Positions 935 through 37,423 of a DNA stretch of 64,000 nt are shown piece after piece. The stretch lies in the NCBI RefSeq assembly GCF_016903815.1, contig NZ_CP069974.1; one strand, written 5' to 3'. Numbering within the stretch: the first letter of the stretch is position 1; the number at the start of each line of letters is the position of its first letter. The notes below the pieces were generated by a model. That model had not been told where the DNA came from. It worked only from the letters and a program-made list of their open reading frames with translations, and did not search any database. This stretch comes from Escherichia coli (lineage in GTDB: Bacteria; Pseudomonadota; Gammaproteobacteria; Enterobacterales; Enterobacteriaceae). The position numbers and the translations under genes are program-made.

Positions 935-1754
935 GGCACTGTTGCAAATAGTCGGTGGTGATAAACTTATCATCCCCTTTTGCTGATGGAGCTGCACATG
1001 AACCCATTCAAAGGCCGGCATTTTCAGCGTGACATCATTCTGTGGGCCGTACGCTGGTACTGCAAATACGGCATCAGTTACCGTGAGCTGCAGGAGATGC
1101 TGGCTGAACGCGGAGTGAATGTCGATCACTCCACGATTTACCGCTGGGTTCAGCGTTATGCGCCTGAAATGGAAAAACGGCTGCGCTGGTACTGGCGTAA
1201 CCCTTCCGATCTTTGCCCGTGGCACATGGATGAAACCTACGTGAAGGTCAATGGCCGCTGGGCGTATCTGTACCGGGCCGTCGACAGCCGGGGCCGCACT
1301 GTCGATTTTTATCTCTCCTCCCGTCGTAACAGCAAAGCTGCATACCGGTTTCTGGGTAAAATCCTCAACAACGTGAAGAAGTGGCAGATCCCACGATTCA
1401 TCAACACGGATAAAGCGCCCGCCTATGGTCGCGCGCTTGCTCTGCTCAAACGCGAAGGCCGGTGCCCGTCTGACGTTGAACACCGACAGATTAAGTACCG
1501 GAACAACGTGATTGAATGCGATCATGGCAAACTGAAACGGATAATCAACGCCACGCTGGGATTTAAATCCATGAAGACGGCTTACGCCACCATCAAAGGT
1601 ATTGAGGTGATGCGTGCACTACGCAAAGGCCAGGCCTCAGCATTTTATTATGGTGATCCCCTGGGCGAAATGCGCCTGGTAAGCAGAGTTTTTGAAATGT
1701 AAGGCCTTTGAATAAGACAAAAGGCTGCCTCATCGCTAACTTTGCAACAGTGCC
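935..1754 (+). mobile_element. IS26 (IS6 family), complete 820 bp
   Basis: Terminal inverted repeats GGCACTGTTGCAAA at 935-948 and TTTGCAACAGTGCC at 1741-1754; internal 234-aa Tnp26 ORF. Confidence 0.95.
998..1702 (+). CDS. tnpA: IS26 transposase Tnp26
   Basis: Protein MNPFKGRHFQRDIILWAVRWYCKYGISYRELQEM... matches Tnp26 from memory; 234 aa from ATG at 998. Confidence 0.95.
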   Translation: MNPFKGRHFQRDIILWAVRWYCKYGISYRELQEMLAERGVNVDHSTIYRWVQRYAPEMEKRLRWYWRNPSDLCPWHMDETYVKVNGRWAYLYRAVDSRGRTVDFYLSSRRNSKAAYRFLGKILNNVKKWQIPRFINTDKAPAYGRALALLKREGRCPSDVEHRQIKYRNNVIECDHGKLKRIINATLGFKSMKTAYATIKGIEVMRALRKGQASAFYYGDPLGEMRLVSRVFEM

Positions 1755-15558: not shown

Positions 15559-16378
15559 ATGACTTCCACTTTCTGAACTGTTCGGCAATCACCCATAACG
15601 CCTTGTTGATTCTTATATCACCATCAATACCTGTAATGGCTCTTGTCCTGGTATTTTTCCCGGAGGCACTTCGCCCCGATAATCCACCTTTTATCATATT
15701 CTCCTGAACCCGCTGCCAGGTTGTCCAGAGATCGTTCTGTTTGTCTTCCCGACGACGGGGAGTAATTATCTGTTCAGGTGTCACTGGCGTTTTATTTTCA
15801 TCTTCATACCTGACCATCAGTGCAGCTCTGCCAAATAAATGTTGCTCGTCACTGTTAAGATGAATTTCTTTCATCGCCTCCATATTATCAGTGACCTTAT
15901 CAAAGACACCGAGCACTTCATACGCTCCCTCGATAACCTGCCCGACAATATCACCTTTATGTGGAACGCGGATTTCGCCAAAATTATTTCCGCACACCAG
16001 GCCATTTGTGCAGACAAAACGAAAAATTCCGGGGATCATCTGATAACTGGATGAACCATCATGTGAATTAAGCAGGATAATTTCAGGAACTTCCTGTCCG
16101 TTAATATGCCCTTCCCTGCGAAGACGTAACATATGTTTACTGTATTCGCGACGTCCCAAATCACGAACCCGACTCTGACAGGCAAAGAATGGCTGGAAAC
16201 CTTCATCACGTAACTTATTGATGATATTGATTGTTGGAATATACGTATAACGTTCACTCCGGGACTCATGTTTATCACCGGAAAATACCGAAGGCACGAA
16301 CTGCATTAATTCATCATCCGTTAAAGGACGTTCACGGCGGATGGAATTATACCGACCAAAACGGGAAGCTAATCGCAT
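15557..16378 (-). CDS. leading-region orf273-like protein (DUF932-like)
   Basis: 273 aa from MRLASRFGRYNS...; position next to oriT as in the F leading region. Confidence 0.6.
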   Translation of the reverse strand: MRLASRFGRYNSIRRERPLTDDELMQFVPSVFSGDKHESRSERYTYIPTINIINKLRDEGFQPFFACQSRVRDLGRREYSKHMLRLRREGHINGQEVPEIILLNSHDGSSSYQMIPGIFRFVCTNGLVCGNNFGEIRVPHKGDIVGQVIEGAYEVLGVFDKVTDNMEAMKEIHLNSDEQHLFGRAALMVRYEDENKTPVTPEQIITPRRREDKQNDLWTTWQRVQENMIKGGLSGRSASGKNTRTRAITGIDGDIRINKALWVIAEQFRKWKS

Positions 16379-16496
16379 AACAGCTACTCCTTTATGAAAG
16401 AATAAATTTAATAAAAAATTTTTCCGCTTAATATCATCCCCCCCGATCTCCATTAACAAGATTGCAACAATCAGGAGGGGTATTCATCACATCCGG

Positions 16497-16784
16497 TCAG
16501 CAGATCGCCCGGATATCGAGGCCGGCACGCTTAATCTGACGCAGGAACTGTTTGAAGTGATCGGCTTCCGCAATGTTGATATGGCGGAACTGCTTATCCA
16601 CACCCTGACTGAGCGCGTAGCTATAACTGAAGGCCATCTTTTCCGGGTGGCTTTTGCGATATTTTTTCAGCTCAGTCAGGCTGCTGAATTCCAGGACGTC
16701 CCACTCTTCCCCGGTGTTTTTTTTCTTCCCGGCAACAAGAAGCGTGTACGACGCGGTGTTAACGTGGATATTTCGGGTACTCAT
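16497..16784 (-). CDS. leading-region orf95-like small protein
   Basis: 95-aa ORF with RBS GGAGAAAGCAGG immediately downstream (minus strand) of the GC-rich repeat. Confidence 0.55.
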   Translation of the reverse strand: MSTRNIHVNTASYTLLVAGKKKNTGEEWDVLEFSSLTELKKYRKSHPEKMAFSYSYALSQGVDKQFRHINIAEADHFKQFLRQIKRAGLDIRAIC

Positions 16785-16810
16785 CCTGCTTTCTCCTCTC
16801 TCTGGTTTTC

Positions 16811-17392
16811 AGCCCCCATCATCTGTTGAGTTTCGGGAGCCGCGGTTTTGACGTTTTGCGGGGACCTGCCTTTTGTTCCCTCCGGTATTCACCATCACCT
16901 TTTTGAGAACCTTCGCCGCAAGGGGCATCACTGCCACGGACGGAAACGACTGTCCGGGGGCAGACCGCAAAAGTTTTTGCCTGCTTCTGGGCAAAAAGTT
17001 TTGCGGGATGTGCATTTCACCCCTGGACTGGCGGAGACGGTTGTGGCTGTCTTTGCCCCCGGCGACAGGGGCTTAAACAGGTGAATGGCACCGGACAGAA
17101 CAACGGGCAGGGACCCGCCGCAACGACGTGAAGCGCGGTTTGCGAAACGGCGTTGCCCCTTACATCCCGGCGGTCTTTTGCCGGGATGCCAGGAGCGCAG
17201 GCCACGGCGCGACAGAGGCGGCGCGACCGGAACGGTCGCTGCAAGCCAGGGGTTTTCACGCATCGGACCGTAGCGACAGCCCGAAACCGCGCCAGCGGGT
17301 TCGGCGGAGACTGGCAGGTGCGCCAGCAGCTGCCTGTCGGAGTCGGGCCTGACGACCGGATGCCGCCAGGCAGCCGGGAGCCGAAGGTGCGC
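16811..17392. repeat. GC-rich structured repeat copy 1 (candidate Frpo/ssi-type ssDNA promoter), abutting intron copy 1
   Basis: ~0.57-kb sequence repeated at 28596-29177 (near-identical) and 34285-34848 (diverged in the first ~250 nt); sits ~27 nt upstream of the orf95 start on the minus strand; multiple hairpins, e.g. GCGACCG-GAA-CGGTCGC. Confidence 0.45.
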
Positions 17393-19776
17393 GTGCGACA
17401 GGAAGTCGCTTAACGTATTGTTTTACATTGATAAAACCAGCTATCCCATTAGCTGTAGCCTACCGGGACAGGCGTTGCCGGCAACGGCGGGGTCTGAAGC
17501 TCCCGGGACAACGAGAGCCGGGCGTCAGCCCGGGTAATGCCCCGTGAGGGGCTTTACCTTGCTGCAAGCATCATGCGGCAGGAGAGCAAGGCTGGTCAGA
17601 AGGGTTAACACATGTGAACTGTTGATAAACACCGTTATCGGCAACAGGCCAAAGATGCTGACAGGCCTGAACCAAAAGGTACGGGGTCCGGTTGCTACCT
17701 CGCGCACAGGGAGCACATGGGCGCAGAGACCCCCGGTGAAGAGACAGAACCCGCCCTGACCCTCTGTATGTTAAGCGGAACCTGGTAAACCCGTATCGCT
17801 GCCTCACAGGCAGGTGAACCGCAAGGAACACTGTTAGCGGTGCGGGCATAGGAGGACGGAAAAAGCGAATGCCCGGCTGTAATAACCGGGATACGGGGCA
17901 GGTTCCCCGACGCGAAAGCGGGCAGACTTCCGTCTGGTCTTTAATTGCATGAAAAGCTGTAAAGCAGTCAAAAGGATATCAGCGAGATGAATACACACAT
18001 CAGTGTGTCCACGATACCCCACCCGACAGGCTGGCACACCATAAACTGGAAAGCATGCCATGCCCGGGTGCGAAAGCTACAGTTACGGATTGCAAAGGCA
18101 ACCCGACAGCAACAATGGCGGCAGGTCAGAGAACTACAGCGCATCCTCACCCGCTCATTCTCCGGCAAAGCCGTGGCTGTCAGGCGTGTAACTGAAAATA
18201 CCGGTAAAAGGACACCCGGTATTGACGGAAAAATATGGCACACACCGAAGGAGAAATGGGAAGGAATATGCAGCCTGAATCTGTGTGGTTACAGGCCACA
18301 GCCACTACGGCGAATACATATCCCAAAATCAAACGGCAAAACGCGACCGCTGGGCATACCCACAATGAGGGACCGGGCCATGCAGGCACTGTGGCTGCTG
18401 GCTCTGGAACCCGTATCCGAGACCACTGCTGACCATAACAGCTATGGTTTCAGACCAATGCGCAGCACGCATGACGCCATTGAGTCCATTTTTCTGCGGA
18501 TGAGCCAGAAAGTATCGCCCAAATGGATACTGGAGGGCGATATTAAAGGGTGCTTCGATAACATCAGCCATGACTGGCTGCTTTCCCATATTCCGATGGA
18601 CAGGAGACTGCTTAAAAAATGGTTGAAAGCAGGTTACATGGAAAGAGGCGTGTTTAACCATACGAACAGCGGGACACCGCAGGGAGGCATCATATCCCCT
18701 GTTCTCGCCAACATGGCTCTGGACGGACTGGAGAAGGAACTGATGCAAACGTTCAGGAAAAGTGGTTATCACAGTGCAAAGCACCAGGTGAATTATGTGA
18801 GATATGCTGATGATTTCATCTGTTCAGGCAGCTCCCGTGAATTGCTGGAAAATGAGGTCAGACCACTGATTGCAGCTTTCATGCGCGAACGAGGGCTGGA
18901 ACTGTCGGAAGAAAAAACAGCGATCACACATATAGATAAAGGCTTCGACTTTTTAGGGCAGAACGTCAGGAAGTACAACGGTAAAATGCTGATTAAACCG
19001 TCGAAGAAAAACCTGAAGAACTTCCTCTGTAAAGTCAGAGAAATAATTAAACGCAATCCGACGCTCCCGGCATGGAAACTGATAGGCCAGCTAAACCCGG
19101 TGATCCGGGGATGGGCTACCTATCACCGACACGTCGTGGCGAAAGAAACATTTAATTATGTCGACACCCAAATCTGGCGAGCTATATGGCGATGGTGTGT
19201 AAGACGGCATCCCCGGAAAGGATTGCGGTGGATCGCCGGACGATACTTCTCCTTTGAAGGCAGGCGCTGGATCTTTAAAGCCATAACCCCGGAAGGGAAA
19301 ATTCTGACACTCTTCCGGGCAATGGAAACACCGATAAAGCGCCATATAAAAATCAAAGGCGAAGCAACACCATACACCCCCGGAATGGAAATCTACTTTG
19401 AACGTCGTCTGGATCTAATCTGGAAAGGCAAATCAAAGAAGATGAAGACAGTAGTTCAACTCTGGAAGAGGCAGGGGAAACACTGTCCGCAGTGCGGACA
19501 ACTCATAACCAACCAGACCGGATGGAATATACATCACCGGATCAGGAAAGTTATGGGCGGCAGTGACGAACTGACCAATCTCGAGTTGTTACATCCGAAC
19601 TGCCACCGACAGTTACACAGCAGGGAAGCCGGTGCTCACCGAAAGCACTTATAAAGGCTTGAGCGGAGTGCGGGGAAACTCGCACGCTCCGTTCTTAGGG
19701 GGCGGCGGCGCAGCAATGTGCCGCTGCTACCCGACCCGGCAGACAGGACAACACTGCAGTAGTCAGAATCAGAGCA
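17393..19776 (+). mobile_element. group II intron copy 1 (RT-maturase-HNH IEP); 3' boundary approximate
   Basis: Starts GTGCGACAGGAAGTCGC; 555-aa IEP in domain IV; domain V-like hairpin GAGCGGAGTGCGGGGAAACTCGCACGCTCCGTTC at 19661-19694; identity with copies 2 and 3 extends to ~19776, true 3' splice site probably within 19735-19776. Confidence 0.75.
17987..19654 (+). CDS. group II intron-encoded reverse transcriptase/maturase with HNH endonuclease domain
   Basis: RT motifs (GTPQGGIISP, YVRYADDF), maturase region, C-terminal CPQCG...HH...HPNCHRQLH. Confidence 0.9.
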   Translation: MNTHISVSTIPHPTGWHTINWKACHARVRKLQLRIAKATRQQQWRQVRELQRILTRSFSGKAVAVRRVTENTGKRTPGIDGKIWHTPKEKWEGICSLNLCGYRPQPLRRIHIPKSNGKTRPLGIPTMRDRAMQALWLLALEPVSETTADHNSYGFRPMRSTHDAIESIFLRMSQKVSPKWILEGDIKGCFDNISHDWLLSHIPMDRRLLKKWLKAGYMERGVFNHTNSGTPQGGIISPVLANMALDGLEKELMQTFRKSGYHSAKHQVNYVRYADDFICSGSSRELLENEVRPLIAAFMRERGLELSEEKTAITHIDKGFDFLGQNVRKYNGKMLIKPSKKNLKNFLCKVREIIKRNPTLPAWKLIGQLNPVIRGWATYHRHVVAKETFNYVDTQIWRAIWRWCVRRHPRKGLRWIAGRYFSFEGRRWIFKAITPEGKILTLFRAMETPIKRHIKIKGEATPYTPGMEIYFERRLDLIWKGKSKKMKTVVQLWKRQGKHCPQCGQLITNQTGWNIHHRIRKVMGGSDELTNLELLHPNCHRQLHSREAGAHRKHL

Positions 19777-20048
19777 GGAAGAAAAAGAGAATAATCACAG
19801 GGAAGGTGATGTGATTTCTGACAGGCCATAACCAGAGAAGGCGGGGGAAAAGAACGGGCGCCGCAGGCGCGCGTTCATCCCCGTTCCTGAAGGGAAACGA
19901 CCTTCCTGAAGTCAGGTTGTTCATGCCCGTACAACATCAGCAAGGAGAAAGGGGCTACCGGCGAACCAGCAGCCCCTTTATAAAGGCGCTTCAGTAGTCA
20001 GACCAGCATCAGTCCTGAAAAGGCGGGCCTGCGCCCGCCTCCAGGTTG

Positions 20049-25868: not shown

Positions 25869-28529
25869 GTAGGGTAGGGTACGTGTGGTCTTTCAAGATA
25901 AATGGCGAATATGTCCTGCTTATCTTGAGTTAGATCACCGTTACCCCCCCTCCGAACCGTACGTGCACCTTTCAATGCATACGGCTCTCCATTGCTAGCT
26001 TATTGGGGATAAACTCATTTAGCAGAATCCCCACTTGAGACAGGTGGTTGCAGGAGTATTCTTCCCTTTTCCTGTCTCAGATCGGGTAGTTTTCCGCTAT
26101 GTAACTTGTCGTGGCAACTTGCGCACAAAATCATCGTTTTCCGGCGGCGTGCGATCATCATTAGTTGCCACAGGCTGGGTTTATATCCGGCCTTACGACC
26201 TTTCTTCAGGTCTTTTAGCTTTCTGACATGATGTACTTCGCAGCGCCCAGTCTTCGCACAATACTCGCAGATCCTTGCCCCTAATCGACGCATGATCTCT
26301 GTTGTGCGGGTTGTGATATGTGCGGTTCTCGGTTCCGTATCGACAATCGTTGTTCGGTTGCGATTGACATGTTTGAGTTTGAAAACCTCAATCTTTCGGG
26401 ATCCATTTTTGGCCTGAACGGTAATAGCCAGATCTCCATTATTTTGCCGTAGCGATTTGGCGACTTTATTCACTGAACTACGTCGTTTATTCGCTAGGGT
26501 CTTAAAAAGGCTTATTTGCCATATGAAATATAATTTTGATAATTTATATTTCATGTCCAGCGCCAGACTGTAGTAGTTCGCCAATCCGCGCATTTCCGCG
26601 TTGAAAGTCAGAACAATTTCAGCTTCACTGAGATTTTGTAGACTTGAACGATGTACAGCCTTCACATTCTCATAACAGCCATATTTCTTTTGGTGACAAA
26701 ATTTAGCGGCTATATTGTCAGGAACGAAGAGCTGCACAATTCCTGTGGTGGATCTCCGGAGAGCGTGCCGCCCTTGCATTTTCTGCTTCAGCAATTTCTT
26801 TGCATCTGCCTGTCTGATTTCATAGCCTAAAAAATTAACTCCTTCTGAGATATGGCGGATCCTGGTCTTTGCTTCATTAACTTCCAATCCCAGTGAAGTA
26901 GTAATAAAGTTTCTGACCTGTCTTGATATATGTTCAGCATCTTTCTTCGAGCCGATGACACCAATTACGAAGTCATCAGCATATCGAACATAGTACATAC
27001 GCCTGAAGTTTGGATCGTTCATGACCTGAGATGGTATAGAACGTTTTTCTTCAAGCAGTCGTTCAATTTCTTTCTTTATGGCTTCTTTTTCTGATTCAGA
27101 ATCAGTTGCCATACCGTCTACTTTCTTTCGTAGTTTATGAATCTTATGGGCCAGCCTGTTCATATCTGGATTCGCTCTTCGTTTTGTACCGCTTGTATAT
27201 GCAGGAATTAAGTTCTGTTCTACAAAACGGTCCAGTTTGTCGAGGTATATATTTGCCAGTAAGGGAGAAATTATCCCACCTTGTGGCGTGCCAGAATATG
27301 AGCGATGGTATTTCCAATTGTCCACATATCCTGCCTTCAGCCACTGTTCGATTAATTTCAGGAAATTCTTATCCTTAATTTTCTCTGCCAGTGTATTCAG
27401 CAATAGTTTGTGGGGGATATTGTCAAAGAAACCTTTGATATCAACATCCACGATCCATTTAACTCCGTTCCAGACTGGACGAATAGATCTGAGCGCAGTT
27501 TCACACGAACGTTTTGGTCTGAATCCATGAGAGTGTTCAGAGAATACTGGTTCATAAACCCTTTCCAGAATAATTCTTGCTACTTCTTGCGCCAGTTTAT
27601 CGTCTCCACCTGGAATCCCCAGCGGTCTGGTTTTTCCGTCCTTTTTTGGGATCTGAACTCTGCGTACAGGTTTCGCTACGTATTCTCTACTCCGCAATGT
27701 TTTTGCCAGCTTCTCTGCTCTTTCGATAGAGAAGCCATCAATGGTATCTGTTGATACACCTTGAGTCAGTGCACCTGCATTGGCCCGTATATTCACGTAG
27801 GCTTGCAGCCACAGTCCGGGCTCACACGCAATTTTGTATAGATTACGTACTGGATACCCTTTTTTTGAAGCATCCTCAATTCCATCTAATCTTTTCTCAA
27901 GTTCATCAGGCAGCATTGGCTAACCCTCCTCTTAGAGATTGATGTATCTAACAACTGTCTCCCTTCCCCGCAGCACTGTGAGGCTTTCATCTCCCTTCCG
28001 GTTGATTTATACCTTTGCTGCTTCCGTATAATGCGGACTGCCGTAGCCCATTACAGGCCGACCTTGAGTACTATGGAGACTCCGCTACCATGCTGGGTAT
28101 AAATCCAGTTTAGGTAGTCCCGTAGTTTCACGGTGTGGAGATGCGATGTACTTAGGATGTCTTTCGATCGTTTAACTATTTCATCAATAGCTGGCCCGTT
28201 AGAGTGGTCACAATCAACGTAGGGCGGATTTCTTGTGCTATTACGGGAATAACGCTTCAATCGTTCTGCGTTATTGGTTTCCTGTTTCCCACATAGATCT
28301 CGACTTCAACAAACCCAGTTTATCCATATACATCTTGCATTGAGTGGTGATACTTATAACGATTTCCGTATTCACCACCCTTTTCTGTGGATGCTATGTT
28401 CACCTCTCCTTTTCAGGATCTCCGAGCCTGTTACCAAGCGAGGCTAACCACAGTATGCAATGGCTATACCACTAAGCCATGTTGCTTTTCATGCAACACT
28501 CCATAAAACACCGCGCTTCAACGGCGCAC
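25869..28529 (-). mobile_element. group II intron (LtrA-like IEP, IIA-like) inserted in ssb in sense orientation
   Basis: Minus-strand 5' end GTGCGCCGTTGAAGCGCGG directly after ssb codon 13; IEP 26015-27916; canonical domain V GAGCCGTATGCATTGAAAGGTGCACGTACGGTTC at 25954-25987 (minus); 3' end ...CCTAC followed by ssb exon 2. Confidence 0.85.
26015..27916 (-). CDS. group II intron reverse transcriptase/maturase (LtrA-like) with C-terminal HNH-like domain
   Basis: YSGTPQGGIISPLLANIYL, YVRYADDFVIGV, maturase region, C-terminal CEYC...HH...CASCHDKLH; closely resembles Ll.LtrB LtrA by recall. Confidence 0.9.
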   Translation of the reverse strand: MLPDELEKRLDGIEDASKKGYPVRNLYKIACEPGLWLQAYVNIRANAGALTQGVSTDTIDGFSIERAEKLAKTLRSREYVAKPVRRVQIPKKDGKTRPLGIPGGDDKLAQEVARIILERVYEPVFSEHSHGFRPKRSCETALRSIRPVWNGVKWIVDVDIKGFFDNIPHKLLLNTLAEKIKDKNFLKLIEQWLKAGYVDNWKYHRSYSGTPQGGIISPLLANIYLDKLDRFVEQNLIPAYTSGTKRRANPDMNRLAHKIHKLRKKVDGMATDSESEKEAIKKEIERLLEEKRSIPSQVMNDPNFRRMYYVRYADDFVIGVIGSKKDAEHISRQVRNFITTSLGLEVNEAKTRIRHISEGVNFLGYEIRQADAKKLLKQKMQGRHALRRSTTGIVQLFVPDNIAAKFCHQKKYGCYENVKAVHRSSLQNLSEAEIVLTFNAEMRGLANYYSLALDMKYKLSKLYFIWQISLFKTLANKRRSSVNKVAKSLRQNNGDLAITVQAKNGSRKIEVFKLKHVNRNRTTIVDTEPRTAHITTRTTEIMRRLGARICEYCAKTGRCEVHHVRKLKDLKKGRKAGYKPSLWQLMMIARRRKTMILCASCHDKLHSGKLPDLRQEKGRILLQPPVSSGDSAK

Positions 28530-28595: not shown

Positions 28596-29177
28596 AGCCC
28601 CCATCATCTTTTGAGTTTCGGGAGCCGCGGTTTTGACGTTTTGCGGGGACCTGCCTTTTGTTCCCTCCGGTATTCACCATCACCTTTTTGAGAACCTTCG
28701 CCGCATGGGGCATCACTGCCACGGACGGAAACGACTGTCCGGGGGCAGACCGCAAAAGTTTTTGCCTGCTTCTGGGCAAAAAGTTTTGCGGGATGTGCAT
28801 TTCACCCCTGGACTGGCGGAGACGGTTGTGGCTGTCTTTGCCCCCGGCGACAGGGGCTTAAACAGGTGAATGGCACCGGACAGAACAACGGGCAGGGACC
28901 CGCCGCAACGACGTGAAGCGCGGTTTGCGAAACGGCGTTGCCCCTTACATCCCGGCGGTCTTTTGCCGGGATGCCAGGAGCGCAGGCCACGGCGCGACAG
29001 AGGCGGCGCGACCGGAACGGTCGCTGCAAGCCAGGGGTTTTCACGCATCGGACCGTAGCGACAGCCCGAAACCGCGCCAGCGGGTTCGGCGGAGACTGGC
29101 AGGTGCGCCAGCAGCTGCCTGTCGGAGTCGGGCCTGACGACCGGATGCCGCCAGGCAGCCGGGAGCCGAAGGTGCGC
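28596..29177. repeat. GC-rich structured repeat copy 2 (candidate Frpo/ssi-type ssDNA promoter) immediately upstream of ssb
   Basis: Near-identical to 16811-17392; begins ~28 nt upstream of the ssb start codon on the minus strand. Confidence 0.45.
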
Positions 29178-31561
29178 GTGCGACAGGAAGTCGCTTAACG
29201 TATTGTTTTACATTGATAAAACCAGCTATCCCATTAGCTGTAGCCTACCGGGACAGGCGTTGCCGGCAACGGCGGGGTCTGAAGCTCCCGGGACAACGAG
29301 AGCCGGGCGTCAGCCCGGGTAATGCCCCGTGAGGGGCTTTACCTTGCTGCAAGCATCATGCGGCAGGAGAGCAAGGCTGGTCAGAAGGGTTAACACATGT
29401 GAACTGTTGATAAACACCGTTATCGGCAACAGGCCAAAGATGCTGACAGGCCTGAACCAAAAGGTACGGGGTCCGGTTGCTACCTCGCGCACAGGGAGCA
29501 CATGGGCGCAGAGACCCCCGGTGAAGAGACAGAACCCGCCCTGACCCTCTGTATGTTAAGCGGAACCTGGTAAACCCGTATCGCTGCCTCACAGGCAGGT
29601 GAACCGCAAGGAACACTGTTAGCGGTGCGGGCATAGGAGGACGGAAAAAGCGAATGCCCGGCTGTAATAACCGGGATACGGGGCAGGTTCCCCGACGCGA
29701 AAGCGGGCAGACTTCCGTCTGGTCTTTAATTGCATGAAAAGCTGTAAAGCAGTCAAAAGGATATCAGCGAGATGAATACACACATCAGTGTGTCCACGAT
29801 ACCCCACCCGACAGGCTGGCACACCATAAACTGGAAAGCATGCCATGCCCGGGTGCGAAAGCTACAGTTACGGATTGCAAAGGCAACCCGACAGCAACAA
29901 TGGCGGCAGGTCAGAGAACTACAGCGCATCCTCACCCGCTCATTCTCCGGCAAAGCCGTGGCTGTCAGGCGTGTAACTGAAAATACCGGTAAAAGGACAC
30001 CCGGTATTGACGGAAAAATATGGCACACACCGAAGGAGAAATGGGAAGGAATATGCAGCCTGAATCTGTGTGGTTACAGGCCACAGCCACTACGGCGAAT
30101 ACATATCCCAAAATCAAACGGCAAAACGCGACCGCTGGGCATACCCACAATGAGGGACCGGGCCATGCAGGCACTGTGGCTGCTGGCTCTGGAACCCGTA
30201 TCCGAGACCACTGCTGACCATAACAGCTATGGTTTCAGACCAATGCGCAGCACGCATGACGCCATTGAGTCCATTTTTCTGCGGATGAGCCAGAAAGTAT
30301 CGCCCAAATGGATACTGGAGGGCGATATTAAAGGGTGCTTCGATAACATCAGCCATGACTGGCTGCTTTCCCATATTCCGATGGACAGGAGACTGCTTAA
30401 AAAATGGTTGAAAGCAGGTTACATGGAAAGAGGCGTGTTTAACCATACGAACAGCGGGACACCGCAGGGAGGCATCATATCCCCTGTTCTCGCCAACATG
30501 GCTCTGGACGGACTGGAGAAGGAACTGATGCAAACGTTCAGGAAAAGTGGTTATCACAGTGCAAAGCACCAGGTGAATTATGTGAGATATGCTGATGATT
30601 TCATCTGTTCAGGCAGCTCCCGTGAATTGCTGGAAAATGAGGTCAGACCACTGATTGCAGCTTTCATGCGCGAACGAGGGCTGGAACTGTCGGAAGAAAA
30701 AACAGCGATCACACATATAGATAAAGGCTTCGACTTTTTAGGGCAGAACGTCAGGAAGTACAACGGTAAAATGCTGATTAAACCGTCGAAGAAAAACCTG
30801 AAGAACTTCCTCTGTAAAGTCAGAGAAATAATTAAACGCAATCCGACGCTCCCGGCATGGAAACTGATAGGCCAGCTAAACCCGGTGATCCGGGGATGGG
30901 CTACCTATCACCGACACGTCGTGGCGAAAGAAACATTTAATTATGTCGACACCCAAATCTGGCGAGCTATATGGCGATGGTGTGTAAGACGGCATCCCCG
31001 GAAAGGATTGCGGTGGATCGCCGGACGATACTTCTCCTTTGAAGGCAGGCGCTGGATCTTTAAAGCCATAACCCCGGAAGGGAAAATTCTGACACTCTTC
31101 CGGGCAATGGAAACACCGATAAAGCGCCATATAAAAATCAAAGGCGAAGCAACACCATACACCCCCGGAATGGAAATCTACTTTGAACGTCGTCTGGATC
31201 TAATCTGGAAAGGCAAATCAAAGAAGATGAAGACAGTAGTTCAACTCTGGAAGAGGCAGGGGAAACACTGTCCGCAGTGCGGACAACTCATAACCAACCA
31301 GACCGGATGGAATATACATCACCGGATCAGGAAAGTTATGGGCGGCAGTGACGAACTGACCAATCTCGAGTTGTTACATCCGAACTGCCACCGACAGTTA
31401 CACAGCAGGGAAGCCGGTGCTCACCGAAAGCACTTATAAAGGCTTGAGCGGAGTGCGGGGAAACTCGCACGCTCCGTTCTTAGGGGGCGGCGGCGCAGCA
31501 ATGTGCCGCTGCTACCCGACCCGGCAGACAGGACAACACTGCAGTAGTCAGAATCAGAGCA
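29178..31561 (+). mobile_element. group II intron copy 2
   Basis: Identical to copy 1 across the IEP and flanking RNA domains; same junction with the upstream repeat. Confidence 0.75.
29772..31439 (+). CDS. group II intron-encoded RT/maturase/HNH (copy 2)
   Basis: 555-aa protein identical to the copy 1 IEP. Confidence 0.9.
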   Translation: MNTHISVSTIPHPTGWHTINWKACHARVRKLQLRIAKATRQQQWRQVRELQRILTRSFSGKAVAVRRVTENTGKRTPGIDGKIWHTPKEKWEGICSLNLCGYRPQPLRRIHIPKSNGKTRPLGIPTMRDRAMQALWLLALEPVSETTADHNSYGFRPMRSTHDAIESIFLRMSQKVSPKWILEGDIKGCFDNISHDWLLSHIPMDRRLLKKWLKAGYMERGVFNHTNSGTPQGGIISPVLANMALDGLEKELMQTFRKSGYHSAKHQVNYVRYADDFICSGSSRELLENEVRPLIAAFMRERGLELSEEKTAITHIDKGFDFLGQNVRKYNGKMLIKPSKKNLKNFLCKVREIIKRNPTLPAWKLIGQLNPVIRGWATYHRHVVAKETFNYVDTQIWRAIWRWCVRRHPRKGLRWIAGRYFSFEGRRWIFKAITPEGKILTLFRAMETPIKRHIKIKGEATPYTPGMEIYFERRLDLIWKGKSKKMKTVVQLWKRQGKHCPQCGQLITNQTGWNIHHRIRKVMGGSDELTNLELLHPNCHRQLHSREAGAHRKHL

Positions 31562-31577
31562 GCAGGAAAAAGAAGAA

Positions 31578-31616
31578 CAGTAGCAGTAGCAGTAGCAGTA
31601 GCAGTAGCAGTAGCAG
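31578..31616. repeat. hexanucleotide simple sequence repeat (CAGTAG)x6
   Basis: cagtagcagtagcagtagcagtagcagtagcagtagcag directly 3' of intron copy 2; not expanded at the equivalent position after copy 3. Confidence 0.9.
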
Positions 31617-33815: not shown

Positions 33816-34046
33816 TCAGTTAAAAGCGCGTTTCAGTTCGAGTGTGCGGAGCACCTGCCCGAAGGCCGTGTTTTTCATGGCGGGGATGTGTACACCACGC
33901 CCCCGGTGAAAACTCCGGGCAATGTGTCGCCCGAAGGCTTTCAGCACGGGGTCAATTTCCGGCGCGGGGATGTCTTCGCGTCTGAAACGGGGATGACGGC
34001 GGGGCTTTACAGCCGCTGCGGAAGGTGAAACAATACTTACTGTCAT
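33816..34046 (-). CDS. small hypothetical leading-region protein (76 aa)
   Basis: ORF downstream (minus strand) of repeat copy 3; no motif recognised. Confidence 0.35.
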   Translation of the reverse strand: MTVSIVSPSAAAVKPRRHPRFRREDIPAPEIDPVLKAFGRHIARSFHRGRGVHIPAMKNTAFGQVLRTLELKRAFN

Positions 34047-34284
34047 AATTTAGCCTCTTATGACGTTAATTAATGAAACCGTAAAGACTGTTCGTGCAGT
34101 CTCTGCGGTGTGGATTAAGCAGGTCCCTGACCTGCTTTTTTCATATCTGCGTCTGACGTTCTCCGGTGTTTTCCTCCTTCTGTTCCTGCGTTCTCATTAC
34201 CTGCCAGCCGGATGACTGACAGAACACATAAATGCGTATTGCCGGAGCCTGAAATAAATCCTGATTTTTAAAGAACATCACCCG

Positions 34285-34848
34285 TTGAGTTTCGGGAGCC
34301 GCGGTTTTGACGTTTCGCGGGAACCTGCTGCTGTATACCCTGTGGTATGAACTTCACCCGTTTGAGAACCTTCGCCGCAAGGGGCATCACTGCCACGGCC
34401 TGACGCACCTGTCCTGGGCAGAACGCAAAATTTTTTACCGGGTTTTGGGTAAAAAATTTTGTGGGCTGTTCATTTACCCTGGACAGTCAGTGCGGCAGGT
34501 TGTGGCTGTATCAGCCCCAGGCGACAGGGACTCATACGGGTGTGTGGCACCGGCAGGCAATGAGCAGGGACCCGCCGCAACGACGGAGAGCGCGTGCGCG
34601 AAACGGCGTTGCCCCTTACATCCCGGCGGCCTTTTGCCGGGATGCCGGGAGCGCAGGCCACGGCGCGACAAGGGTGGCGCGACCGGAACGGTCGCTGCAA
34701 GCCCGGGGTTTTCACGCATCGGACCGTAGCGACAGCCCGAAACCGCGCCAGCGGGTTCGGCGGAGACTGGCGGGTGCGCCAGCAGCTGCCTGTCGGAGTC
34801 GGGCCTGACGACCGGATGCCGCCAGGCAGCCGGGAGCCGAAGGTGCGC
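34285..34848. repeat. GC-rich structured repeat copy 3 (diverged 5' part)
   Basis: Homologous to 16825-17392; first ~250 nt heavily substituted, remainder near-identical; abuts intron copy 3. Confidence 0.45.
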
Positions 34849-37233
34849 GTGCGACAGGAAGTCGCTTAACGTATTGTTTTACATTGATAAAACCAGCTAT
34901 CCCATTAGCTGTAGCCTACCGGGACAGGCGTTGCCGGCAACGGCGGGGTCTGAAGCTCCCGGGACAACGAGAGCCGGGCGTCAGCCCGGGTAATGCCCCG
35001 TGAGGGGCTTTACCTTGCTGCAAGCATCATGCGGCAGGAGAGCAAGGCTGGTCAGAAGGGTTAACACATGTGAACTGTTGATAAACACCGTTATCGGCAA
35101 CAGGCCAAAGATGCTGACAGGCCTGAACCAAAAGGTACGGGGTCCGGTTGCTACCTCGCGCACAGGGAGCACATGGGCGCAGAGACCCCCGGTGAAGAGA
35201 CAGAACCCGCCCTGACCCTCTGTATGTTAAGCGGAACCTGGTAAACCCGTATCGCTGCCTCACAGGCAGGTGAACCGCAAGGAACACTGTTAGCGGTGCG
35301 GGCATAGGAGGACGGAAAAAGCGAATGCCCGGCTGTAATAACCGGGATACGGGGCAGGTTCCCCGACGCGAAAGCGGGCAGACTTCCGTCTGGTCTTTAA
35401 TTGCATGAAAAGCTGTAAAGCAGTCAAAAGGATATCAGCGAGATGAATACACACATCAGTGTGTCCACGATACCCCACCCGACAGGCTGGCACACCATAA
35501 ACTGGAAAGCATGCCATGCCCGGGTGCGAAAGCTACAGTTACGGATTGCAAAGGCAACCCGACAGCAACAATGGCGGCAGGTCAGAGAACTACAGCGCAT
35601 CCTCACCCGCTCATTCTCCGGCAAAGCCGTGGCTGTCAGGCGTGTAACTGAAAATACCGGTAAAAGGACACCCGGTATTGACGGAAAAATATGGCACACA
35701 CCGAAGGAGAAATGGGAAGGAATATGCAGCCTGAATCTGTGTGGTTACAGGCCACAGCCACTACGGCGAATACATATCCCAAAATCAAACGGCAAAACGC
35801 GACCGCTGGGCATACCCACAATGAGGGACCGGGCCATGCAGGCACTGTGGCTGCTGGCTCTGGAACCCGTATCCGAGACCACTGCTGACCATAACAGCTA
35901 TGGTTTCAGACCAATGCGCAGCACGCATGACGCCATTGAGTCCATTTTTCTGCGGATGAGCCAGAAAGTATCGCCCAAATGGATACTGGAGGGCGATATT
36001 AAAGGGTGCTTCGATAACATCAGCCATGACTGGCTGCTTTCCCATATTCCGATGGACAGGAGACTGCTTAAAAAATGGTTGAAAGCAGGTTACATGGAAA
36101 GAGGCGTGTTTAACCATACGAACAGCGGGACACCGCAGGAAGGCATCATATCCCCTGTTCTCGCCAACATGGCTCTGGACGGACTGGAGAAGGAACTGAT
36201 GCAAACGTTCAGGAAAAGTGGTTATCACAGTGCAAAGCACCAGGTGAATTATGTGAGATATGCTGATGATTTCATCTGTTCAGGCAGCTCCCGTGAATTG
36301 CTGGAAAATGAGGTCAGACCACTGATTGCAGCTTTCATGCGCGAACGAGGGCTGGAACTGTCGGAAGAAAAAACAGCGATCACACATATAGATAAAGGCT
36401 TCGACTTTTTAGGGCAGAACGTCAGGAAGTACAACGGTAAAATGCTGATTAAACCGTCGAAGAAAAACCTGAAGAACTTCCTCTGTAAAGTCAGAGAAAT
36501 AATTAAACGCAATCCGACGCTCCCGGCATGGAAACTGATAGGCCAGCTAAACCCGGTGATCCGGGGATGGGCTACCTATCACCGACACGTCGTGGCGAAA
36601 GAAACATTTAATTATGTCGACACCCAAATCTGGCGAGCTATATGGCGATGGTGTGTAAGACGGCATCCCCGGAAAGGATTGCGGTGGATCGCCGGACGAT
36701 ACTTCTCCTTTGAAGGCAGGCGCTGGATCTTTAAAGCCATAACCCCGGAAGGGAAAATTCTGACACTCTTCCGGGCAATGGAAACACCGATAAAGCGCCA
36801 TATAAAAATCAAAGGCGAAGCAACACCATACACCCCCGGAATGGAAATCTACTTTGAACGTCGTCTGGATCTAATCTGGAAAGGCAAATCAAAGAAGATG
36901 AAGACAGTAGTTCAACTCTGGAAGAGGCAGGGGAAACACTGTCCGCAGTGCGGACAACTCATAACCAACCAGACCGGATGGAATATACATCACCGGATCA
37001 GGAAAGTTATGGGCGGCAGTGACGAACTGACCAATCTCGAGTTGTTACATCCGAACTGCCACCGACAGTTACACAGCAGGGAAGCCGGTGCTCACCGAAA
37101 GCACTTATAAAGGCTTGAGCGGAGTGCGGGGAAACTCGCACGCTCCGTTCTTAGGGGGCGGCGGCGCAGCAATGTGCCGCTGCTACCCGACCCGGCAGAC
37201 AGAACAACACTGCAGTAGTCAGAATCAGAGCAG
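34849..37233 (+). mobile_element. group II intron copy 3
   Basis: Identical to copies 1 and 2 except a single substitution in the IEP. Confidence 0.75.
35443..37110 (+). CDS. group II intron-encoded RT/maturase/HNH (copy 3, Gly to Glu substitution in RT motif)
   Basis: GTPQEGIISP instead of GTPQGGIISP (gga to gaa); otherwise identical to copies 1 and 2. Confidence 0.9.
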   Translation: MNTHISVSTIPHPTGWHTINWKACHARVRKLQLRIAKATRQQQWRQVRELQRILTRSFSGKAVAVRRVTENTGKRTPGIDGKIWHTPKEKWEGICSLNLCGYRPQPLRRIHIPKSNGKTRPLGIPTMRDRAMQALWLLALEPVSETTADHNSYGFRPMRSTHDAIESIFLRMSQKVSPKWILEGDIKGCFDNISHDWLLSHIPMDRRLLKKWLKAGYMERGVFNHTNSGTPQEGIISPVLANMALDGLEKELMQTFRKSGYHSAKHQVNYVRYADDFICSGSSRELLENEVRPLIAAFMRERGLELSEEKTAITHIDKGFDFLGQNVRKYNGKMLIKPSKKNLKNFLCKVREIIKRNPTLPAWKLIGQLNPVIRGWATYHRHVVAKETFNYVDTQIWRAIWRWCVRRHPRKGLRWIAGRYFSFEGRRWIFKAITPEGKILTLFRAMETPIKRHIKIKGEATPYTPGMEIYFERRLDLIWKGKSKKMKTVVQLWKRQGKHCPQCGQLITNQTGWNIHHRIRKVMGGSDELTNLELLHPNCHRQLHSREAGAHRKHL

Positions 37234-37423
37234 CAGATAAAGGAACAACAACATCAGGAACAGTTCCATAACATAAGAAAGAAACACTCCTGAGTCAGAC
37301 ACATCACAGACGGGAAGGGTAACGGGCGACGCGCCAGCGTGGCCCGCTTCCCTTCCGGCAGGCGTCAGCCTGCCAGGGGTTTTCGCGCGGACTGACAGGC
37401 GGCCTCCACCGCCTGCCCCTGTA

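What the first reader, a model, noticed from the sequence alone, without database searches (positions are those of the whole stretch)
36125..36140. Single substitution in a conserved RT motif distinguishes intron copy 3 IEP
Copy 3 encodes GTPQEGIISP where copies 1 and 2 have GTPQGGIISP (gga to gaa near 36131-36133). The QG dipeptide is conserved in group II intron RTs, including LtrA, so copy 3 may encode an impaired RT and depend on the other copies in trans.
Basis: seen in the sequence. Interest (0 to 1): 0.3.

Follow-up and report, generated by a model that had tools for sequence, protein, structure and literature searches.

The report
Probable RT-killing point mutation, intron copy
One of three otherwise identical copies of a known group II intron on an IncF plasmid carries a single G-to-A change that replaces a near-invariant active-site glycine of its reverse transcriptase with glutamate, which probably disables that enzyme; this is ordinary decay of a mobile element, if it is not a sequencing error.

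Summary
Codon 233 of the 555-aa intron-encoded protein (IEP) of copy 3 is GAA (Glu, window 36139-36141; SNP at 36140). Copies 1 and 2 have GGA (Gly). An empty-site comparison puts the intron at 2,343 nt (34849-37191; copies at 17393-19735 and 29178-31520). Within those bounds the SNP is the only difference among the three copies. The ~575 nt of "divergent copy 3" sequence upstream is repeated plasmid backbone (Frpo-like), not intron.

The glycine is the G of the RT-4 motif PQG. It is G in 121/121 close homologues and 144/150 distant representatives; every exception is a decayed or fragmentary protein. All solved group II RTs shown in alignment also have it. The change costs 9 bits of Pfam RVT_1 score.

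The A allele is private. It is absent from 546 places in complete E. coli genomes, 1,126 places in PLSDB plasmids and all metagenome contigs. The exact protein is on one contig, against 944 for the G form. The nearest plasmid is identical over 16,021 bp except at this base.

Most likely this is a very recent, RT-inactivating mutation. The ribozyme is untouched and copies 1 and 2 could supply intact IEP in trans. A consensus error cannot be excluded (~20%). The intron is already known, and the finding is of low interest.

The parts
36139..36141 (+). Codon 233 of the copy 3 IEP: GAA (Glu) where copies 1 and 2 and all public relatives have GGA (Gly). The SNP is at 36140, intron position 1292.
36127..36168 (+). 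RT motif 4 (GTPQEGIISPVLAN). Its PQG element is changed to PQE.
   Evidence: PMC12337344
35443..37110 (+). Copy 3 IEP ORF, 555 aa, with RVT_N, RVT_1, GIIM (maturase) and HNH domains. RVT_1 scores 134.3 bits, against 143.3 bits in copies 1 and 2.
34849..37191 (+). Group II intron copy 3, 2,343 nt (GTGCGAC...CCCGAC). The boundaries come from an empty site, with a 1-nt ambiguity.
   Evidence: same length as the published pHN7A8 intron (PMC8765060)
34893..35042 (+). Ribozyme domain I-IV core element of copy 3 (Rfam RF02012, 121.8 bits).
37115..37191 (+). Domains V-VI of copy 3 (Rfam RF00029, 60.1 bits).
17393..19735 (+). Intron copy 1, with IEP ORF 17987..19654 carrying G233. Its IEP is the form seen on 944 public contigs.
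29178..31520 (+). Intron copy 2, with IEP ORF 29772..31439 carrying G233. Identical to copy 1.
34276..34848 (+). Repeated backbone element 5' of copy 3. It is Frpo-like and includes IBS2/IBS1 at its 3' end. It is about 80% identical to the equivalent elements at 16817-17392 and 28602-29177, and it is not part of the intron.

Best explanation
Copy 3 of a known 2,343-nt IIB1-type group II intron of IncF plasmids has acquired a very recent, private G-to-A transition. It changes Gly233 to Glu in the PQG element of RT motif 4 of its intron-encoded protein. In reverse transcriptases this Gly lines the dNTP and templating-nucleotide pocket, so a charged side chain there most likely abolishes or severely reduces cDNA synthesis. 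That would leave copy 3 unable to drive its own retrohoming. The SNP lies in the ORF loop of domain IV, about 700 nt past the start codon, so the ribozyme core and the DIVa binding site are unchanged. Copy 3 RNA should still be bound, spliced and mobilised by the intact IEP made from copies 1 and 2. The mutant protein may keep maturase activity, as YADD-to-YAAA mutants of other IEPs do. All three target sites in the window are already occupied, so the loss is currently close to neutral. This looks like the first step of mutational decay of a mobile element. Shown here: the SNP, its uniqueness, the invariance of the residue, and the identity of the rest of the intron. Inferred: loss of RT activity, retained maturase activity, and complementation in trans.
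For: The SNP is the only difference among the three 2,343-nt copies. Gly is invariant in 121/121 homologues and present in 144/150 distant representatives, whose exceptions are all decayed or fragmentary. T.el4h IEP, LtrA and GsI-IIC RT all have PQG at this position. The Pfam RVT_1 score drops by 9.0 bits from this one change. [quoted passage not shown] The equivalent Gly carbonyl (HIV-1 G152, XMRV G191) hydrogen-bonds the 2'-OH of the templating nucleotide. Natural variation in this IEP across plasmids is 11 synonymous to 4 nonsynonymous changes, none in an RT motif, which indicates purifying selection. The allele is absent from 546 places in E. coli genomes, 1,126 places in PLSDB and all metagenome contigs, while the G allele occurs on 19 metagenome contigs. 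The exact protein is on 1 contig against 944 for the G form. The nearest plasmid, pMB9272_2, is identical over 16,021 bp except at this base, so the assembly is otherwise clean. A context-dependent sequencing error would be expected to hit the identical sequence in copies 1 and 2 as well. RT supplied from a separate gene mobilises the related EcI5 intron (PMC8643678). No empty target site remains in the window.
Against: No activity data exist for this or any equivalent Gly-to-Glu mutant; literature searches found none. The allele rests on one public record and the reads are not available, so a consensus error cannot be excluded. The correspondence G233 = HIV-1 G152 rests on motif spacing (PQGxxxSP) and the literature; my profile alignment to HIV-1 RT reached only the YxDD region. 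Whether any of the three copies is transcribed is unknown, since they lie antisense to the neighbouring genes.
Confidence: 0.62

Rival explanations
1. The G-to-A is a sequencing or assembly consensus error, and copy 3 is in reality identical to copies 1 and 2.
For: The allele is a singleton: one record in about 15 billion proteins, none in the E. coli, PLSDB or metagenome collections. In two other three-copy plasmids the copies are perfectly identical to each other. Repeats of 2.3 kb are hard to polish.
Against: The window differs from pMB9272_2 by this one base in 16,021 bp with no gaps, so the assembly is not error-prone. The local sequence is identical in copies 1 and 2 and reads G there, which argues against a systematic context-dependent error. 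Mis-mapping of reads among repeats homogenises copies rather than creating a new allele. G-to-A is the commonest real mutation class.
Confidence: 0.22
2. The mutation is real but tolerated: the Glu233 IEP keeps enough RT activity for copy 3 to remain autonomous.
For: There is no direct assay. One distant IEP (P0282) also reads GTPQEG.
Against: P0282 also has YADN in place of the catalytic YADD and lacks its C-terminal part, so it is a decayed gene. No intact-looking RT among about 270 examined has a residue other than Gly here. The change costs 9 bits of Pfam score. The residue has a published active-site role.
Confidence: 0.08
3. The mutation is real and selected: an RT-dead but RNA-binding IEP acts as a dominant-negative brake or as a splicing-only maturase that limits intron mobility on the plasmid.
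For: RT-dead YAAA IEPs are used as splicing-assay controls in other introns, so RT activity and RNA binding are separable (PMC12590461). All homing sites are saturated.
Against: The allele has not spread to any other sequenced plasmid or metagenome. A single private SNP shows no sign of selection, and neutral decay explains it fully.
Confidence: 0.03

Closest known systems
The 2,343-bp group II intron of IncF (FII-33) plasmid pHN7A8 and relatives (PMC8765060), annotated 'ltrA' in RefSeq
   Same: Same length (2,343 nt), same plasmid family and same leading-region location. The element is present in at least 424 E. coli records and 1,007 PLSDB plasmids. The IEP of copies 1/2 is identical to a protein seen on 944 contigs.
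   Different: Copy 3 carries the private G233E change. The window holds three copies, at three paralogous sites.
EcI5, the IIB1 intron of pO157
   Same: Same IEP architecture (RT, X, HNH En) and an identical RT-4 motif, GTPQGGIISPVLAN. It is also in an F-like plasmid. RT expressed separately from the ORF-deleted intron supports mobility.
   Different: The IEPs are only 56% identical and the intron DNA is about 67% identical over part of its length, so this is a different intron with a different target site.
T.el4h intron RNP (PDB 6ME0)
   Same: Closest solved structure: E = 1.5e-176 over the full IEP length, with PQG conserved.
   Different: A cyanobacterial thermophile intron, and no mutant at this residue has been described.
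YADD-to-YAAA (RT-dead) IEP mutants of group II introns
   Same: Active-site changes that abolish cDNA synthesis and serve as RT-negative controls in splicing and RNP assays (PMC12590461). This is the expected phenotype class for G233E.
   Different: Those are engineered changes in motif 5 (metal ligands). This one is natural and in motif 4 (dNTP and template pocket). The maturase competence of G233E is untested.
HIV-1 RT Gly152 and XMRV/MLV RT Gly191 (PQG of the LPQG(W/F)K motif)
   Same: Same position in the shared P-Q-G-x-x-x-S-P motif. The backbone carbonyl contacts the 2'-OH of the templating nucleotide.
   Different: These are distant RT families. The equivalence rests on motif and literature, not on a significant alignment made here.
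Mutational inactivation step of group II intron extinction models in Enterobacteriales (Leclercq and Cordaux 2012, PMC3522654)
   Same: Copies that no longer proliferate are inactivated by mutation and then decay. Here all homing sites are occupied.
   Different: This is a single-SNP snapshot rather than a truncated or frameshifted copy.

Membership tests
Mobile bacterial group II intron | Precise insertion relative to an uninterrupted (empty) target, with a 5' GUGYG and a 3' AY end | tested here: met
   The empty site in NZ_CP023816.1 joins ...GAAGGTGCG(C)|CCGGCAG. The intron runs GTGCGAC...CCCGAC and is 2,343 nt long.
Mobile bacterial group II intron | Catalytic domain V/VI and a domain I-IV core | tested here: met
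   Rfam RF00029 scores 60.1 bits (gathering score 40) and RF02012 scores 121.8 bits (gathering score 34), in all three copies.
Mobile bacterial group II intron | IEP in domain IV with RT, maturase (X) and En domains | tested here: met
   Pfam RVT_N, RVT_1, GIIM and HNH all score above their cut-offs.
Mobile bacterial group II intron | EBS1-IBS1 and EBS2-IBS2 base pairing with the 5' exon | tested here: inconclusive
   EBS1 GCGCAC (intron 310-315) pairs 6/6 with IBS1 GTGCGC (-6 to -1). The EBS2 candidate TCGGC (246-250) pairs with -13 to -9, but this is a 5-mer match without a structural model.
Mobile bacterial group II intron | Splicing and retrohoming activity | not testable with these tools
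   Indirect only: the same intron occupies three paralogous sites, and its alleles differ between near-identical backbones.
Catalytically competent RT (applied to the copy 3 IEP) | Intact RT-4 PQG and RT-5 YADD motifs | tested here: not met
   YADD is intact at residues 273-276, but PQG reads PQE. Gly is near-invariant at this position.
EcI5 (same intron as in pO157) | Near-identity of the intron and its IEP | tested here: not met
   56% IEP identity, and about 67% DNA identity over 1 kb.
Frpo-type ssDNA promoter element (the flanking repeat, not the intron) | Homology to the F plasmid Frpo1/Frpo2 positions and a long ssDNA stem-loop | tested here: met
   82-97% identity over about 438 nt to F sequences directly upstream of ssb and of the ygeA-position gene. 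The element folds into a ~300-nt hairpin with z = -8.35. Promoter activity was not tested.

The most novel reading that the evidence does not exclude
The G233E copy is a natural RT-null sitting beside two wild-type copies. These introns home next to Frpo-type ssDNA promoter repeats with their sense strand on the transferred strand, and their alleles are replaced as a set: identical within a plasmid, yet 8 nt apart between backbones that differ by only 5 substitutions in about 14.7 kb. If that pattern reflects very fast retrohoming into incoming single-stranded plasmid DNA, or cDNA-mediated conversion of resident copies, then this plasmid would be a ready-made system for measuring trans-mobilisation and copy homogenisation of a group II intron during conjugation.
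Probability: 0.15. Interest if true: 0.45.

Novelty: already known. Interest (0 to 1): 0.15.

Why it matters
It matters little on its own. It flags one of three intron copies as probably non-autonomous, which is useful for annotation (the ORF is intact and is labelled a functional 'ltrA') and for anyone using these plasmids to study intron mobility. It also corrects what the 'copies' are: the intron is 2,343 nt, and the divergent 5' part is Frpo-like backbone. The surrounding pattern may be more worth following up than the SNP. The intron sits in three paralogous sites beside ssDNA promoter elements, and its copies are identical within a plasmid while its alleles are decoupled from the backbone.

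Tried and rejected
1. I first took the whole ~2.97-kb repeat unit as the intron, which would have made copy 3 a mosaic with a divergent 5' 500 nt. An empty site rejected this.
2. I then took the first GTGCG (34774) as the 5' splice site. This was also rejected, because the empty site runs through it. The true start is 34849.
3. I tested whether the intron is EcI5. It is not (56% IEP identity).
Only the YxDD region aligned, at E about 0.1, so the equivalence rests on motif and literature.
5. A literature search for G152 substitutions in RTs returned only unrelated proteins. A search for GsI-IIC RT-4 contacts returned nothing, and the Stamos 2017 structure paper is not held.
6. The look-up of encoding contigs had no record of the exact E-variant protein. 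The listing of cluster members did find it, on one contig.
7. I considered a birth defect caused by RT misincorporation during retrohoming. This is less likely, because pMB9272_2 has the wild-type allele at the same site on an otherwise identical 16-kb backbone.
8. I did not run structure prediction or fold search. The tools return no coordinates, and close solved homologues already exist.

Full report
**Observation**

The window encodes GTPQEGIISP at 36127-36156, inside a 555-aa ORF at 35443..37110 on the + strand. Two other + strand loci encode GTPQGGIISP. A fourth RT, on the - strand, belongs to a different intron. G233E is the only amino-acid difference between the copy 3 protein and the copy 1/2 protein.

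**What the copies are**

BLAST gives repeat units of about 2.97 kb: 16817-19791, 28602-31579 and 34276-37250. In these units copy 3 differs from copies 1/2 at roughly 100 positions within its first ~500 nt. After that it is identical except at 36140 and in the 3' flank. This looked like a mosaic intron, but an empty site shows otherwise.

Plasmid NZ_CP023816.1 carries the site 3 flanks joined as ...GAAGGTGCG(C)CCGGCAGACAG. The intron is therefore 34849-37191, 2,343 nt, running GTGCGAC...CCCGAC. The other copies lie at 17393-19735 and 29178-31520. [quoted passage not shown] Within these bounds copies 1 and 2 are identical, and copy 3 differs only at intron position 1292, which is window 36140.

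Each copy has these group II intron features:
- Rfam domain I-IV (RF02012, 121.8 bits) and domain V-VI (RF00029, 60.1 bits) hits.
- An IEP with RVT_N, RVT_1, GIIM and HNH domains.
- EBS1 (GCGCAC, intron 310-315) pairing 6/6 with the last six exon bases.

It is not EcI5. The IEPs are 56% identical, although the RT-4 motif is the same. The closest solved structure is the T.el4h IEP, PDB 6ME0, at E = 1.5e-176.

**Is the position conserved?**

I queried with the E variant, so that word seeding could not favour G at this position.
- All 121 homologues of 60-99% identity have G at position 233.
- Of 150 representatives from a library clustered at 50% identity (37-61% identical to the query), 144 have G.
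- The six exceptions all look non-functional. P0282 reads GTPQEG but also has YADN in place of YADD and is truncated. P0166 has YANC. The other four have a scrambled or missing RT-4 region.
- T.el4h IEP, LtrA and GsI-IIC RT all align "tpqgG" at this position.
- The single change lowers the Pfam RVT_1 score from 143.3 to 134.3 bits.

The literature agrees on the residue's role. [quoted passage not shown] In HIV-1 RT (G152) and XMRV RT (G191) the carbonyl of the equivalent Gly hydrogen-bonds the 2'-OH of the templating nucleotide (PMC10853786 and PMC3616737). The equivalence rests on the shared P-Q-G-x-x-x-S-P motif. My own profile alignment to HIV-1 RT did not extend that far.

Natural variation of this IEP across plasmid lineages is 11 synonymous to 4 nonsynonymous changes. 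None of them falls in an RT motif. The gene is therefore normally under purifying selection, and G233E does not fit that pattern.

**Is the allele real, and how widespread is it?**

- A 61-mer centred on the SNP has no exact match at any of 546 places in 424 records of complete E. coli genomes, nor at any of 1,126 places in 1,007 PLSDB plasmids. Every best hit is 95-99% identical (98.4% in all 30 rows listed), which is one mismatch in 61 nt.
- A 29-mer with A occurs on 0 metagenome contigs. The same 29-mer with G occurs on 19.
- The exact E-variant protein is QRS93342.1 / WP_204638473.1. It is seen on one 136,429-bp E. coli plasmid contig. The G form is seen on 944 contigs.
- The nearest public plasmid, pMB9272_2 (NZ_CP103523.1), matches the window over 16,021 bp with one mismatch and no gaps. 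That mismatch is this base, and pMB9272_2 has G there.

So the allele is a singleton that arose, or was mis-called, after the split from an otherwise identical plasmid. I favour a real mutation at about 0.75-0.8, for four reasons:
- The assembly is otherwise clean.
- The identical sequence context in copies 1 and 2 reads G, which argues against a systematic error.
- Repeat-induced mis-polishing homogenises copies rather than creating new alleles.
- G-to-A is the commonest class of real mutation.

Without the reads, an error cannot be excluded.

**Mechanism**

The mutated residue lines the dNTP and templating-nucleotide pocket, so Glu there most likely abolishes or strongly reduces cDNA synthesis. 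This is an inference. The SNP is about 700 nt downstream of the start codon (intron position 595), in the ORF loop of domain IV. The ribozyme core and the DIVa region are identical to those of copies 1 and 2.

Copies 1 and 2 encode the common wild-type IEP. In the related intron EcI5, RT expressed separately from the ORF-deleted intron supports retrohoming (PMC8643678). Complementation in trans is therefore plausible, but not shown. RT-dead YAAA IEPs are used as controls in splicing assays of other introns (PMC12590461), so the mutant protein may keep maturase function. This too is an inference.

All three target sequences in the window are occupied and no empty site remains. The loss of RT in one copy should therefore be nearly neutral. 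That fits the published picture of mutational inactivation of introns that have stopped proliferating (PMC3522654).

**Context noticed along the way**

- The ~575-nt repeat 5' of each intron copy is Frpo-like. Its first ~438 nt match the F plasmid directly upstream of ssb and of the ygeA-position gene. Those are the published positions of the Frpo2 and Frpo1 ssDNA promoters (PMC9849209).
- The empty-site version of this repeat folds as ssDNA into a ~300-nt hairpin with z = -8.35. The intron site lies about 240 nt beyond the hairpin, in an extension of the repeat that F lacks.
- The introns are antisense to all the neighbouring leading-region genes.
- In two other three-copy plasmids (LR890537.1 and CP056471.1) the three copies are identical to each other, but they share 8 differences from the window's allele.
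- LR890537.1's backbone differs from the window by only 5 substitutions and one 6-nt indel in 14,727 nt. Intron alleles are thus decoupled from the backbone and homogeneous within a plasmid.
- A second, unrelated group II intron interrupts the plasmid ssb gene.

**Verdict**

It is well supported on conservation, untested on function, and does not exclude a consensus error. The element is a known, widely annotated intron, and a private, probably inactivating point mutation in one copy is ordinary. Interest is low.

Noticed in passing
window 16817-17392, 28602-29177, 34276-34848 (plus about 45-60 nt 3' of each intron): The repeat flanking each intron copy is Frpo-like backbone. Its first ~438 nt match the F plasmid directly upstream of ssb and of the ygeA-position gene (82-97% identity), and the empty-site version folds as ssDNA into a ~300-nt hairpin (z = -8.35). 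All three introns sit at the same position, about 240 nt beyond the hairpin, in an extension of the repeat that F lacks. The intron sense strand is opposite to all leading-region genes. By orientation relative to traM/oriT in related plasmids it is the transferred strand, which is an inference.
   Followed up: partly
window 17393-19735, 29178-31520, 34849-37191 compared with L007 (NZ_LR890537.1) and L008 (CP056471.1): Intron alleles are decoupled from the backbone. In L007 each of the three copies carries the same 8 substitutions relative to the window, while 14,727 nt of backbone carry only 5 substitutions and one indel, and the ssb intron carries none. L008 has a backbone about 1.9% different from the window, yet the same intron allele as L007 at all three sites. 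Copies are always identical within a plasmid. This points to colonisation as a set or to conversion, and I did not resolve which.
   Followed up: partly
window ~25869-28517 (- strand); IEP ORF 26015..27916: A second, unrelated group II intron (633-aa IEP; Rfam domains V/VI at 25869-25989) interrupts the plasmid ssb gene in the sense orientation, after MAVRGINKVILVG. It is identical in L007.
   Followed up: partly
window 34041-34140 (+): Rfam hit to AS-pc01 (antisense RNA to pHK01_035; 98.9 bits). It is on the same strand as intron copy 3 and about 700 nt upstream of it, so it is a possible source of + strand transcription toward the intron.
   Followed up: no
L001 (NZ_CP103523.1) 15961-17521; window 935-1754: In the nearest plasmid, pMB9272_2, an IS26 truncates the intron copy that corresponds to window copy 2, leaving its last 804 nt. 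The window has its own 820-nt IS26-like match at 935-1754.
   Followed up: no
window ~31563-31610: A hexanucleotide repeat (GCAGTA)n lies immediately 3' of the target of copy 2. It differs in length by 6 nt between the window and L007.
   Followed up: no
protein P0282 (metagenomic, 488 aa, 39% identical): An independent case of GTPQEG in a distant group II IEP. It also carries YADN in place of the catalytic YADD and is C-terminally short, so the same Gly-to-Glu change recurs in a decayed gene.
   Followed up: partly
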